From a virus, in IMG/VR virus record IMGVR_UViG_3300008255_000115, positions 35,193 to 99,192 of that record: a stretch of DNA of 64,000 nucleotides; one strand, given 5' to 3'. The position numbers were made by a program, and so were the translations under genes. Below are positions 59,660 to 61,168 of this stretch, one piece after another. Position 1 is the first letter of the stretch; each line of letters starts with the position of its first letter. Below the pieces are notes generated by a model. It was not told where the DNA came from. It worked only from the letters and a program-made list of their open reading frames with translations, and ran no database searches.

Positions 59660-59921
59660 TTCCTGTATTTATCATGTCTTTAATAATTTCTGCTGGAGAT
59701 GAGCTTTCTTCATGTTCATATTTTTTATCAAAAAAATCTATTTTTGTATTTACATAGTTCATAATTTTATAGATATCTCCATATGTATTTGCTTTTCTAA
59801 TTTTTCTTAATATTATTTTACATAATACTAATAAGGCCATAATACTACTTTTTTCTACTATACTTAATGGTGTATTAGGATTTAATTGTTTTGTATGATC
59901 AAATTTTTGAAAAAATTGCAT
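59640..59921 (-). CDS. Hypothetical protein (93 aa)
   Basis: Overlapping operon ORF. Confidence 0.6.
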   Translation of the reverse strand: MQFFQKFDHTKQLNPNTPLSIVEKSSIMALLVLCKIILRKIRKANTYGDIYKIMNYVNTKIDFFDKKYEHEESSSPAEIIKDMINTGNEINEM

Positions 59922-59946
59922 AATGTAAATTTTTAATTAATAATAG

Positions 59947-60089
59947 TGGGGAAACCAGGAGTCGAACCTGGAGGCTATCTTATACCAATAATAATATTGT
60001 CTAGGATAATCATTTATTGAAGATAGCATGTCAATTGACATGAAGGATACATCTAAAATATATTGTGTCTACCATTTCACCATTTCCCC
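59947..60089 (-). tRNA. Atypical tRNA-like RNA: Leu-type D arm, UUA anticodon in canonical register, 75-nt variable region
   Basis: Acceptor GGGGAAA/UUUCCCC+A73; D arm GUGAAAUGGUAGACAC; anticodon arm AUAUA-UUUUAGA-UGUAU; T arm CCAGG-UUCGACU-CCUGG; no encoded CCA. Confidence 0.7.
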
Positions 60090-60095
60090 AATAGT

Positions 60096-60137
60096 CCCCA
60101 GCTCAAGTCAATATCCTTCAAAAGAGCTGGGGTTTTT
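60096..60137 (+). terminator. GC-rich hairpin between the two tRNA-like RNAs (terminator-like on + strand)
   Basis: CCCCAGCTC...GAGCTGGGG followed by TTTTT on the + strand. Confidence 0.55.
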
Positions 60138-60388
60138 GTAAATTCAGTATTCAGTTAATTTTAAGCTAATGCTAGTTTATTCTGTTGTTATGCCTCTAAA
60201 CCACACCCCCTGTTATATCCTTAATTAGAGGGGATGGCAGGATTTGAACCTGCGTCTACAGAAAAGTAATTAATAACTGACTGACTTTACCAATGATCCT
60301 CATGCTTAAGCTTTGACCCAACACTAATGCTAATTACCTAGAATAGATAATGCTTATGTTGATGCTTAGGCTAAGGTCTTCTTCCTAG
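60138..60388 (-). ncRNA. Circularly permuted tRNA-mimic ncRNA (YrlA/Y-RNA-like architecture) with hexamer repeats
   Basis: 5'->3': UCUGU, AGAC, T arm GCAGG-UUCAAAU-CCUGC, CAUCCCC, loop, GGGGGUG, D arm GUUUAGAGGCAUAAC, ACAGA; closed by GUAAAGUCAGUCAGUUA/UAACUGAAUACUGAAUUUAC. The 5' boundary is approximate. Confidence 0.75.
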
Positions 60389-61168
60389 TTATCCAAACAG
60401 ATAACTAAATATTTTATCAGAATCTAAATTAGATTCCACAACTTCTACTTCATTACATCTTTTTAAAGCTTCTATAATTGAAGTTGTTAAAGTTGTTCTT
60501 CTTTTTAAAGCTTCAGCTCTTTTTCTTTGAGTCCATTGACCTGAAAATCTTTGTTGAGTATATTCTCCTAATTCAACAGTAGTAGTTTTAGTAGCTACAG
60601 TTGGTGTATAATTTGGAGAATTTTTATCTACATTTGGATCTTTAAGAATGTAATTTTCTTTTTCAGTAGTTATACTTACACCTTCTATTAAAGGTGTTTC
60701 AAATATTTCTTTACCTTTGTACATCTCATTCTCTGAAAGAGACCATTCTTCAGAATCACTTCTTACAGGAATAGATTCAATCATTCCATGTAATCCTGTA
60801 GTTTCTACTAAACTTTTAAGCCTTAATAGTTCTAAAGAAGTATATTCTCCCCAACTATTTCCTTCAACAATAAGTTCAGCTTTTGCTATTCCAGAAGCAT
60901 TTGTAGCTTCTTGTGCAAATAATGCATCAATATATTCTTTAGCATTTTCTTTAAACCATCTTAATTTTTCATCCACAGTAGTTTGTACTAATGTATTACC
61001 TCTTTTATTAGGTTCATCAATAGTACCTTCTTTTGCTTCATATGTTCTCTTTTCACCTAAAAAAGCTCCTTGAGATTTTGTAAAGAATTTAGCATAATCT
61101 TGGATCATACCTTTAAATATTGGTGCTAAAGAATCTGTTTTAGCCAATAATACATTTAATTTGTTCAT
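60389..61168 (-). CDS. Uncharacterised 259-aa protein directly upstream of the permuted tRNA-like RNA
   Basis: Long helices plus a beta hairpin (EKRTYE, TPTVATKTTTVELGEYTQQRFSG); no TROVE/Ro60 features recognised. Confidence 0.8.
   Translation of the reverse strand: MNKLNVLLAKTDSLAPIFKGMIQDYAKFFTKSQGAFLGEKRTYEAKEGTIDEPNKRGNTLVQTTVDEKLRWFKENAKEYIDALFAQEATNASGIAKAELIVEGNSWGEYTSLELLRLKSLVETTGLHGMIESIPVRSDSEEWSLSENEMYKGKEIFETPLIEGVSITTEKENYILKDPNVDKNSPNYTPTVATKTTTVELGEYTQQRFSGQWTQRKRAEALKRRTTLTTSIIEALKRCNEVEVVESNLDSDKIFSYLFG

What the first reader, a model, noticed from the sequence alone, without database searches (positions are those of the whole stretch)
59947..60089. tRNA-like RNA with an ochre-reading UUA anticodon and a 75-nt branched variable arm
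Seen: intact acceptor, Leu-type D and T arms, and A73. Canonical numbering gives stem AUAUA/UGUAU with loop UU-UUA-GA, i.e. anticodon UUA, complementary to UAA. A one-base shift gives Leu(UAG) but with a worse stem. The variable region is 75 nt and holds a palindromic hairpin CAUGUCAAUUGACAUG (60027-60042) and a second long stem GCUAUCUU...AAGAUAGC (59974-60027). TAA is the dominant stop in this genome, so a working ochre suppressor is unlikely. Inference: a decoy or structural tRNA mimic co-transcribed with the permuted RNA, or a tRNA with a removable insert of about 55 nt.
Basis: partly seen in the sequence, partly recalled or inferred. Interest (0 to 1): 0.7.

Follow-up and report, generated by a model that had tools for sequence, protein, structure and literature searches.

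The report
Docking tRNA look-alike, not suppressor
The flagged gene is a real tRNA-shaped RNA, but it is most likely not a stop-codon reader: its oversized extra arm and the strand next to its "anticodon" stem pair with two loops of the neighbouring phage RNA, and both pairings change in step across dozens of related phages, which points to an undescribed two-RNA particle.

Summary
On the minus strand (60089 to 59947) lies a tRNA-shaped RNA with a Leu-type D arm, A73, UUA at the anticodon position and a 75-nt variable region with two hairpins. Rfam tRNA scores 43.9 bits (cut-off 29).

It is very unlikely to be an ochre suppressor.
- The phage uses the standard code, and TAA ends 53 of 62 long ORFs.
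- The "anticodon" loop differs in almost every relative; one 89%-identical relative in an RNA library has 3 of 7 loop letters changed.

What is conserved is docking to the adjacent DUF7873-linked, back-to-front tRNA-mimic RNA, which this scan has noted before on other DNA.
- Contact 1: the tip of the long hairpin (CCUAGA) complements a loop of that RNA (UCUAGG). It stays complementary through more than 20 different sequence pairs in about 40 loci.
- Contact 2: GUAUCCUUC, overlapping the 3' strand of the "anticodon" stem, complements the near-invariant loop GAAGGAUAUUGA of the preceding GC hairpin. Rare loop variants are compensated.

I read it as the second RNA subunit of an undescribed phage RNA-protein particle. 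Its function is unknown. I found no paper describing it.

The parts
59947..60089 (-). tRNA-shaped companion RNA gene (143 nt): acceptor stem, Leu-type D arm, three hairpins (a, b, c), T arm, A73; no encoded CCA
   Evidence: RF00005 43.9 bits; fold; coordinates checked
60047..60063 (-). Hairpin a, the 'anticodon arm': stem AUAUA/UGUAU, loop UUUUAGA (60052-60058; UUA at positions 34-36). On its own it folds at only -0.8 kcal/mol
   Evidence: the loop is not conserved in relatives
60042..60050 (-). Contact-2 segment GUAUCCUUC (tRNA positions 40-48): 3' strand of hairpin a plus the single-stranded CCUUC; complementary to GAAGGAUAU of the upstream hairpin loop
   Evidence: duplex -12.6 kcal/mol; 1 of 1000 shuffles as good
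60027..60042 (-). Hairpin b: CAUGUC-AAUU-GACAUG
   Evidence: compensatory U-A to G-C change in the 89% relative
59975..60026 (-). Hairpin c: long imperfect stem with the 9-nt apical loop AUCCUAGAC (59999-60007); contact-1 core CCUAGA at 60000-60005
   Evidence: covariation with the partner loop
60096..60132 (-). GC-rich hairpin just upstream of the tRNA-like RNA, with the near-invariant 12-nt loop GAAGGAUAUUGA (60108-60119); partner of contact 2
   Evidence: the stem covaries between loci and in the RNA-library relative
60337..60342 (-). Loop core UCUAGG of a hairpin (60327-60352) in the permuted tRNA-mimic RNA; partner of contact 1
   Evidence: duplex -8.0 kcal/mol; 3 of 1000 shuffles as good
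60138..60388 (-). Context: DUF7873-linked RNA with hexamer repeats and a circularly permuted, anticodon-less tRNA-like core (subject of another finding of this scan)
60389..61168 (-). Context: DUF7873 protein gene (259 aa)
   Evidence: Pfam PF25283, E 1.4e-40; 550 homologues

Best explanation
This is a dedicated tRNA-shaped partner RNA of the adjacent DUF7873-linked, permuted tRNA-mimic ('Y-like') RNA. It is not a decoding tRNA.

Shown by sequence and covariation:
1. The same kind of RNA (7-bp acceptor stem, 3-bp Leu-type D arm, T arm, A73) follows the DUF7873 RNA in most related loci.
2. The apical loop of its long hairpin c (CCUAGA) is complementary to a loop of the Y-like RNA (UCUAGG). The two loops change together across loci.
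3. GUAUCCUUC (3' strand of the 'anticodon' stem plus the CCUUC linker) is complementary to the loop GAAGGAUAUUGA of the GC hairpin that ends the Y-like RNA. Rare variants of that loop are compensated.
4. The loop at the anticodon position is free to vary.

Inferred:
- The three elements are transcribed together in this phage.
- RNase P and 3' trimming release the 143-nt RNA.
- It docks on the Y-like RNA at two points about 20 bp apart.
- Because contact 2 uses the 3' strand of the weak hairpin a (-0.8 against -12.6 kcal/mol), docking probably opens that stem.
- The complex, probably with DUF7873, would show two tRNA-like heads: one with a closed acceptor stem, one with a free A73 end.

My favoured but untested guess for its job is a bait or platform for tRNA-binding enzymes (nucleases, repair or modification enzymes) during infection, on the logic of Ro60/Y-RNA particles. 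I put that guess at about 0.3. The confidence below is for the docking-partner reading.
For: Real tRNA shape: RF00005 43.9 bits.

Family: a custom scan finds a Leu-type tRNA-shaped RNA 280-820 nt after the DUF7873 gene in most of 40 viral and about 60 metagenome loci. Of these, 17 (counting this window) are three-hairpin forms of 113-148 nt like this one.

Contact 1:
- 27 of 29 distinct loci have at least 6 nt of perfect complement between a Y-loop window chosen without reference to the tRNA-like RNA and the middle of the tRNA-like RNA; mismatched locus pairs reach this in 36%.
- In the long family, 13 of 14 auto-parsed loci give 6 of 6 Watson-Crick pairs. Three positions covary: U-A/A-U/G-C, A-U/C-G and G-C/A-U. 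None of 5000 partner permutations reaches the observed value.
- Eleven of 17 more distant loci add new pairs, for example UCCACAGC/GCUGUGGA and CCUAUAU/AUAUAGG.
- The motif lies in the apical loop, or an otherwise unpaired stretch, of the last hairpin in most of the 16 independent folds; two folds pair part of it.

Contact 2:
- All 16 long members tested have 8.5-12 paired positions, 14 of them at the same place, against a shuffled mean of 5.4.
- Compensated loop variants: GAAGGAAAUUGA with UCAAUUUCCUUC; GAAGGAGAUUGA with CAAUCUUCUUC; GAAGGAUAAAGA with UUUGUCCUUC; GAAGGAUAUAGA with UAUAUCCUUC.

Non-conserved anticodon loop: UUUUAGA, GUUUGAA, UUGCUAA, AUGUUAA, GUGCUAA, UUAUGCA, UUUAGGA and 8-9-nt loops.

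RNA-library relative (soil, 89% identical, depth 60):
- It spans the tRNA-like RNA, the GC hairpin and part of the Y-like RNA, and stops at the discriminator, followed by Illumina adapter.
- It changes 5 positions in hairpin a's 5' strand and loop, and none in either contact segment, the acceptor stem or the T arm.
- It carries compensatory pairs in hairpin b and in the GC hairpin.

No terminator-like site separates the elements.
Against: - No experiment shows the RNA, its ends or the pairing in this phage.
- The RNA-library evidence is one assembled contig of a relative, and DNA carry-over cannot be excluded.
- A single 6-nt complement is not significant by itself (36% in mismatched pairs); the case rests on consistency and covariation.
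- Loci are related, so the counts are not independent events.
- The contact-2 loop is almost invariant, so its covariation rests on five loci, and the permutation test is weak (1 of 5000).
- Contact 2 and hairpin a exclude each other, so both cannot exist at once.
- Among the 7-nt loops of the family, U33 and a purine at 37 are more frequent than composition suggests (my reading), so some anticodon-loop character is kept.
- DUF7873 gave no fold or family clue to function.
Confidence: 0.75

Rival explanations
1. The tRNA-like module is never cut off. It is the 3' domain of one ~450-nt RNA, and the two contacts are tertiary interactions within that single molecule.
For: In this window only 6 nt separate the GC hairpin from G1, and no terminator-like site is found. 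The RNA-library contig runs across the tRNA-like RNA, the hairpin and part of the Y-like RNA. In most long-form loci the tRNA-like RNA starts 10-25 nt after the hairpin.
Against: In L016, L017 and L293 a T-run and an open reading frame lie between the hairpin and the tRNA-like RNA, so there the pairing must be long-range or in trans. An intact acceptor stem with A73 is what RNase P and 3' processing recognise (established knowledge of tRNA processing). Contigs cannot show RNA ends or single transcripts.
Confidence: 0.1
2. It serves only as a processing signal: a tRNA-shaped punctuation mark at which RNase P cleaves to make the 3' end of the Y-like RNA, with no role for the released RNA.
For: Position directly after the Y-like RNA; conserved acceptor, D and T arms and A73. 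tRNA-like punctuation is a known device (mitochondrial transcripts, MALAT1 mascRNA; own knowledge).
Against: It does not explain a conserved 52-nt hairpin whose loop covaries with a distant loop, nor contact 2. It also does not explain loci where an ORF separates the two RNAs.
Confidence: 0.06
3. It is a working ochre suppressor: a Leu-accepting tRNA with anticodon UUA that reads UAA.
For: In this copy the loop is canonical (7 nt, U33, UUA, G37), with A73 and a Leu-type D arm. ARAGORN calls tRNA-Stop(tta) once hairpin c is removed. LeuRS does not read the anticodon (established for E. coli; own knowledge).
Against: Standard code gives 95% ORF coverage with intact 1347-3775-aa ORFs. TAA ends 53 of 62 long ORFs. 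No relative found here keeps UUA, and the 89% relative has 3 of 7 loop positions changed. The stem is marginal (-0.8 kcal/mol) and its 3' strand is under a different constraint.
Confidence: 0.03
4. It is a tRNA gene with a removable insert (a new small intron) that matures into an ordinary class II tRNA.
For: Removing 59975-60026 leaves a 91-nt class II-like tRNA that ARAGORN accepts.
Against: The product would still carry a non-conserved, non-Leu anticodon. The insert's tip is the most conserved motif of the middle region and covaries with a partner. No joint was seen in the RNA-library contig, which keeps the insert. The insert is too short for a group I intron and lies outside the anticodon loop (own knowledge).
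Confidence: 0.03
5. It is a decaying tRNA-Leu pseudogene.
For: Odd anticodon, oversized variable region, missed by ARAGORN.
Against: All arms are intact. The same architecture is kept in relatives whose DUF7873 proteins are only 50-74% identical, with compensatory changes.
Confidence: 0.02

Closest known systems
YrlA-type bacterial and phage Y RNAs bound by Ro60/Rsr (Rfam RF02553; Chen et al. 2014, PMC4201824)
   Same: A non-coding RNA with a tRNA-like module (T arm, D arm, acceptor stem) encoded next to a protein partner, also in phages. It is thought to present a tRNA shape to tRNA-recognising enzymes.
   Different: No Ro60/TROVE gene in the record and no Rfam Y-RNA hit. This RNA has normal 5'-to-3' tRNA order and a free acceptor end. 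It pairs with a second RNA through two covarying helices; PMC4201824 does not contain the word 'kissing'.
T-box riboswitch leader with its tRNA (own knowledge; PMC10424219 turned up but was not opened)
   Same: A structured RNA recognises a tRNA-shaped RNA at two separate points, one being base pairing with the loop of the anticodon-equivalent arm; the pairing sequence covaries with the partner.
   Different: The T-box reads a 3-nt anticodon of a cellular tRNA plus its elbow and 3' end, and controls a downstream gene. Here 6-9 nt pair with a dedicated, co-encoded tRNA look-alike. The second contact is a loop-strand helix beside the D arm. No regulated gene is evident, and no T-box Rfam hit.
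Bacterial class II tRNA-Leu
   Same: A73, 3-bp D stem with a GAAUUGGUAGA-type loop, T arm; a 21-nt 5' stretch is identical to an ordinary phage tRNA-Leu(UAG) (L007:2379-2462).
   Different: Variable region of 75 nt instead of about 12-20. The anticodon is not a Leu anticodon and is not conserved. The 3' strand of the anticodon stem is constrained by pairing to another RNA.
Suppressor tRNAs of stop-codon-recoded phages, including crAss-like phages (amber and opal reassignment: abstract of bioRxiv 10.1101/2022.06.29.495998; rest own knowledge)
   Same: A phage-encoded tRNA-shaped gene with a stop-complementary triplet at positions 34-36, in a crAss-like genome.
   Different: Those phages have in-frame TAG or TGA in part of their genes and a conserved CUA or UCA anticodon. 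Here there is no recoding, the triplet is UUA (ochre), and it is not conserved.
tRNA-Lys3 primer annealed to the HIV-1 genome (own knowledge)
   Same: A tRNA is held on another RNA by two separate helices, one involving its anticodon loop.
   Different: There a cellular tRNA unfolds its acceptor and T arms on an 18-nt primer-binding site to prime reverse transcription. Here the acceptor and T arms stay free, and no reverse transcriptase was seen among the genes I looked at near the element.

Membership tests
Canonical tRNA (Rfam RF00005) | Covariance-model score at or above the gathering score, full-length match | tested here: met
   43.9 bits against 29, model positions 1-71
Canonical tRNA (Rfam RF00005) | Anticodon conserved among orthologues at the same locus | tested here: not met
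   The loop differs in nearly every relative and has 8-9 nt in several; 3 of 7 positions differ in an 89% relative
Canonical tRNA (Rfam RF00005) | Variable region within the known range (4-5 nt, or about 10-24 nt in class II) | tested here: not met
   75 nt with two hairpins
Canonical tRNA (Rfam RF00005) | CCA addition, aminoacylation and use on the ribosome | not testable with these tools
   CCA is not encoded (trailer CUAUUA). The RNA-library contig shows adapter directly after the discriminator, which is uninformative for CCA
Phage stop-codon suppressor tRNA (recoded phages) | In-frame copies of the matching stop codon in phage genes | tested here: not met
   Code 11 gives 95% ORF coverage and intact giant ORFs; TAA ends 53 of 62 long ORFs
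Phage stop-codon suppressor tRNA (recoded phages) | Stop-complementary anticodon kept in related phages | tested here: not met
   UUA occurs only in this copy among 17 long-form relatives and the RNA-library relative
Class II tRNA-Leu | A73 and a Leu-type D arm (3-bp stem, G18G19 placement) | tested here: met
   A73 invariant; D-loop letters invariant in 16 sequences
Class II tRNA-Leu | Leu anticodon (NAG or YAA) | tested here: not met
   UUA here; only L308 of the family shows UAG
Intron-containing tRNA gene | Insert of a known intron type and position (group I in the anticodon loop; bulge-helix-bulge) and a spliced product | tested here: not met
   The 52-nt hairpin lies in the variable region and is conserved as a functional-looking arm. 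No joint in the RNA-library contig, though contigs can hide rare forms
YrlA / Y RNA with Ro60 | Ro60/TROVE protein encoded in the genome, normally adjacent | tested here: not met
   No PF05731 match in the 99-kb record, which is 83% complete
YrlA / Y RNA with Ro60 | Match to the Rfam Y-RNA models | tested here: not met
   No such hit at the gathering score, nor at E up to 10 in 59700-60500
DUF7873-linked RNA module (named only in this scan's notes) | DUF7873 gene followed by a conserved RNA with a permuted tRNA-like core and a GC hairpin with loop GAAGGAUAUUGA | tested here: met
   PF25283, E 1.4e-40; conserved RNA alignment of 13 loci; loop motif found in 39 distinct locus contexts
DUF7873-linked RNA module (named only in this scan's notes) | Physical binding of DUF7873 to either RNA | not testable with these tools
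   Only gene-RNA linkage is seen. The DUF7873 model (pLDDT 88.7) has no informative fold match

The most novel reading that the evidence does not exclude
The two RNAs form a strand-exchange switch. Free, the companion folds as a tRNA with a weak anticodon-like stem. On meeting the Y-like RNA, its CCUUC toehold pairs with the GAAGGAUAUUGA loop and the helix spreads into the stem. The result is a clamped, two-headed tRNA-mimic particle with DUF7873, an undescribed class of phage RNA-protein machine that captures or senses tRNA-handling enzymes. The boldest version has the free form act as a Leu-charged mis-decoder (here of UAA) that the particle keeps in check.
Probability: 0.25. Interest if true: 0.9.

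Novelty: new variant of a known kind. Interest (0 to 1): 0.78.

Why it matters
- It changes an annotation. tRNA and 'suppressor' calls directly downstream of DUF7873 genes in phage genomes (Stop(tta) here; Pyl(cta), Tyr(ata), Thr(tgt) and '???' calls in relatives) are probably not decoders, so they should not be used to infer recoding.
- It adds a second RNA subunit, with a simple and directly testable pairing rule, to a widespread but unstudied protein-RNA module. The protein has 550 homologues at E up to 0.001, in phages and some bacteria.
- A tRNA look-alike that uses its anticodon-equivalent arm to dock on another non-coding RNA, with a 'specifier'-like loop that co-evolves, resembles T-box logic outside gene regulation.
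- The compensatory-mutation experiment can be designed straight from the covariation table, which gives a handle on what tRNA mimicry is for in phage infection.

Tried and rejected
- ARAGORN default, and at a lowered score threshold (-ps80), finds nothing. With introns allowed it gives an arbitrary 'Ser(aga)' that treats hairpins a and b as an intron.
- BLAST of the locus against GenBank phages found no match.
- Exact-pattern scans of IMG/VR for the 5' half found either nothing or one unrelated ordinary tRNA-Leu(UAG).
- The single-protein locus search with DUF7873 failed. The helicase neighbour gave two loci without a syntenic tRNA.
- The pattern ATCCTAGA...GGTTCRANTCC gave mostly chance hits.
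- The pattern for a Leu D arm with a 65-95-nt gap gave about 90 other insert-bearing Leu-type scaffolds. Only 2 of 99 candidates have the hairpin motif upstream: one is this family's own member (the contig of L016), the other is a divergent match.
- 'Spare anticodon arm' idea, from earlier notes on suppressor tRNAs: the hairpin-c loop can be read as AU-CCU-AG (Arg-like), but the CCGAGA, CGACAA and other variants do not fit; partner-loop complementarity explains all of them.
- MAFFT could not align the middle region across subtypes, so contact statistics were computed with anchored motifs in Python.
- The acceptor and T-stem pair count is partly circular, because my scan required those pairs.
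- Pairing of the hairpin-a loop with the hexamer repeats (UGCUAA/UUAGCA in L289 and L295) is not general, so I dropped it.
- DUF7873: no PDB sequence match, no Foldseek match at E up to 0.001, best VIA Z 6.2 to helical proteins. No functional clue.
- The promoter scan was no better than shuffles.
- DNA runs X5, X7 and X9 show only identical sequence here.
- Literature: 'DUF7873' gives 0 papers. No paper found on a companion tRNA-like RNA or on kissing contacts with Y-like RNAs.

Full report
**1. What is there**

The window is the right-hand 64 kb of a 99,192-bp IMG/VR virus record, 83% complete.
- It carries giant ORFs of 1347-3775 aa, typical of crAss-like phages (earlier notes).
- G+C is about 28%.
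- It reads well in the standard code: ORFs of at least 100 aa cover 95% of the record.
- The same DNA occurs in aquifer and groundwater metagenomes.

The flagged element lies on the minus strand, 60089 down to 59947.
- Rfam's tRNA model matches it end to end at 43.9 bits (cut-off 29) once permissive filters are used. It is the only tRNA hit in the record.
- Default ARAGORN and the default-filter Rfam scan miss it.
That places UUA at positions 34-36.
- Then follow CCUU, a 6-bp hairpin (b), a long imperfect hairpin (c, 59975-60026) with the apical loop AUCCUAGAC, CCU and the T arm.
- With hairpin c deleted in silico, ARAGORN reports tRNA-Stop(tta).
- TAA ends 53 of 62 long ORFs.

**2. What relatives carry**

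The gene upstream (60389-61168, minus strand) is a DUF7873 protein. It has 550 homologues at E up to 0.001. Between it and the tRNA-like RNA lies the permuted tRNA-mimic RNA that this scan has reported many times on other DNA.

With an alignment of DUF7873 proteins I fetched 40 viral and 80 metagenome loci. I scanned them for any T arm followed by a 7-bp acceptor stem. Most loci with enough downstream sequence have a tRNA-shaped RNA with a Leu-type D arm and A73, 280-820 nt after the gene.
- Counting this window, 17 are long three-hairpin forms (113-148 nt) built like this one. These include the closest relatives found, with 74, 70, 69, 67, 65 and 64% protein identity.
- More distant loci have 72-100-nt forms.
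- So the expanded region is a conserved feature, not decay.
- The acceptor, D and T stems pair in all 16 aligned sequences with many double changes. This count is partly circular, because my scan required acceptor and T pairing.

**3. The anticodon loop is not conserved**

At the anticodon position the family shows UUUUAGA, GUUUGAA, UUGCUAA, AUGUUAA, GUGCUAA, UUAUGCA, UUUAGGA, UUAUGGA and CAUUUAA, plus 8-9-nt loops.

A soil RNA-library contig about 89% identical to this locus has 13 listed changes in the tRNA-like RNA.
- Five fall in the 5' strand and loop of hairpin a. Three of the 7 loop letters differ.
- None falls in the acceptor stem, the T arm, the 3' strand of hairpin a, CCUUC or the hairpin-c loop.
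- A U-A pair of hairpin b becomes G-C.

A decoding tRNA, suppressor or otherwise, would show the opposite pattern.

**4. Contact 1**

The most conserved motif of the middle region is the tip of hairpin c: CCUAGA here, CCGAGA in another subgroup. The Y-like RNA has a hairpin loop, just before a conserved GUGUUG, that reads UCUAGG here (60337-60342).
- I took a 30-nt window before GUGUUG, chosen without reference to the tRNA-like RNA. In 27 of 29 distinct loci it shows at least 6 nt of perfect complement to the tRNA-like middle, against 36% for mismatched locus pairs.
- In the long family the six core pairs are Watson-Crick in 13 of 14 auto-parsed loci. The 14th was a parsing error; one search shows GCUAGA/UCUAGC for it.
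- Three positions covary: U-A/A-U/G-C, A-U/C-G and G-C/A-U. None of 5000 partner permutations reaches the observed value.
- Eleven of 17 further distant loci add other pairs at the same Y position, such as UCCACAGC/GCUGUGGA, CCUAUAU/AUAUAGG, CCAUAGC/GCUAUGG and ACUAGUAA/UUACUAGU. Jumbo-phage loci have the two motifs swapped between the RNAs.
- Together that is more than 20 different complementary pairs.
- In the short companions the pairing loop is the loop of the anticodon arm itself. ARAGORN's Pyl(cta), Tyr(ata) and Thr(tgt) calls in L049, L052 and L030 fall on such loops. By position, hairpin c may therefore be the anticodon-arm homologue, with hairpins a and b as the addition (inference).
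- In most of the 16 independent folds the motif sits in the apical loop or an unpaired stretch of the last hairpin; two folds pair part of it.

**5. Contact 2**

The GC hairpin that ends the Y-like RNA (60096-60132) has a nearly invariant 12-nt loop, GAAGGAUAUUGA, while its stem covaries freely.

All 16 long companions tested carry its complement, 14 of them at the same place: the 3' strand of hairpin a plus CCUU(C). Here it is GUAUCCUUC, 9 pairs. In several loci it is 11-12 pairs (shuffled mean 5.4). The short forms lack it.

The few loci with a variant loop are compensated:
- GAAGGAAAUUGA with UCAAUUUCCUUC (12 of 12 pairs)
- GAAGGAGAUUGA with CAAUCUUCUUC or AUCUUCUUC
- GAAGGAUAAAGA with UUUGUCCUUC
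- GAAGGAUAUAGA with UAUAUCCUUC

In this window the predicted duplexes are -8.0 kcal/mol (contact 1) and -12.6 kcal/mol (contact 2). Only 3 and 1 of 1000 shuffles are as good. Hairpin a alone is worth only -0.8 kcal/mol. Contact 2 and hairpin a use the same strand, and the 5' strand of hairpin a covaries with it as well (for example ACAAA/UUUGU in L295). Both states therefore seem to be selected, which suggests a switch. This is inference.

**6. Expression and processing**

No terminator-like site lies between the Y-like RNA and the tRNA-like RNA. G1 follows the GC hairpin after 6 nt.

In the soil RNA library one contig (274 nt, depth 60) covers 59947-60173 and stops at the discriminator, where Illumina adapter follows. 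A second contig (1189 nt, depth 90) covers 60235-60380 and runs on upstream, into what should be the DUF7873 gene by position. No joint removes the insert.

This fits co-transcription and a defined 3' end. But it is a relative, the evidence is contigs only, and DNA carry-over cannot be ruled out.

**7. Function**

The record has no Ro60/TROVE gene. DUF7873 folds confidently (pLDDT 88.7) but matches nothing informative.

I therefore commit only to the architecture: a two-RNA complex with two tRNA-like heads, probably bound by DUF7873. As its most likely use I suggest a bait or platform for tRNA-recognising enzymes during infection, by analogy with Ro60/Y-RNA particles (PMC4201824; PMC7824862, section 3.4.9). 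I rate that part at about 0.3.

**8. Known or new**

'DUF7873' occurs in no paper of the library. Searches for tRNA-like RNAs with Y RNAs, kissing loops and phages found nothing that describes a companion RNA or these contacts.

That agrees with the rule found here, but I did not check it on that genome.

**9. Verdict**

The suppressor and intron readings are rejected. The 'structural tRNA mimic' reading is upheld and made specific: a docking partner with two covarying contacts.

Noticed in passing
L049:4034-4110, L052:4106-4181, L030:4131-4203, L045:4283-4377 (and L046-L048): ARAGORN's tRNA-Pyl(cta), Tyr(ata), Thr(tgt) and '???(ttag)' calls right after DUF7873 RNAs. For the first three, the 'anticodon loop' is 7-9 nt complementary to the Y-like loop of the same locus. 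In L045, and I expect its near-identical neighbours L046-L048, the complement (6 nt) lies in the second hairpin, not in the called anticodon loop. They look like docking companions, not decoders or suppressors.
   Followed up: partly
L178, L180, L193, L201, L209, L217, L234, L260, L264, L274, L282 (coordinates): About 90 IMG/VR contigs carry Leu-type tRNA scaffolds with 65-95-nt middles and no canonical anticodon arm, for example a family with acceptor AGUCAGG/CCUGACU. Apart from this family's own member and one divergent match, none has the DUF7873-type hairpin motif upstream, so they are something else.
   Followed up: no
L199, L225, L230, L262, L211, L272, L238, L285, L213: tRNA-Leu(UAA)-like genes with a hairpin of about 45-50 nt inserted in the anticodon loop. 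In most the insert ends in ...CACCA just before UUAAAA. Possibly a small intron or a nested tRNA end.
   Followed up: no
window 60174-60234 (minus strand): The two RNA-library contigs laid on the locus leave a gap of about 40 nt over the loop that caps the permuted acceptor stem of the Y-like RNA. This could be divergence, an assembly break or a processing site.
   Followed up: no
window 60150-60185 (minus strand): The Y-like RNA contains a tmRNA-like reading ...AAU AAA CUA GCA UUA GCU UAA (ending A-L-A-stop). It coincides with the hexamer repeats (AGCAUU/AGCUUA). The tmRNA_permuted model scores only 22 bits against a cut-off of 47, so it is probably not a tag.
   Followed up: partly
L017:4405-4500: A 96-nt tRNA-Thr(CGU)-like gene with a variable region of about 25 nt sits between the DUF7873 RNA and the long companion in the 67% relative.
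   Followed up: no
window 60389-61168 (minus strand): The DUF7873 model is confident (pLDDT 88.7): long helices packed against a long beta hairpin or sheet. It has no informative PDB neighbour (best VIA Z 6.2; Foldseek E above 0.01).
   Followed up: partly
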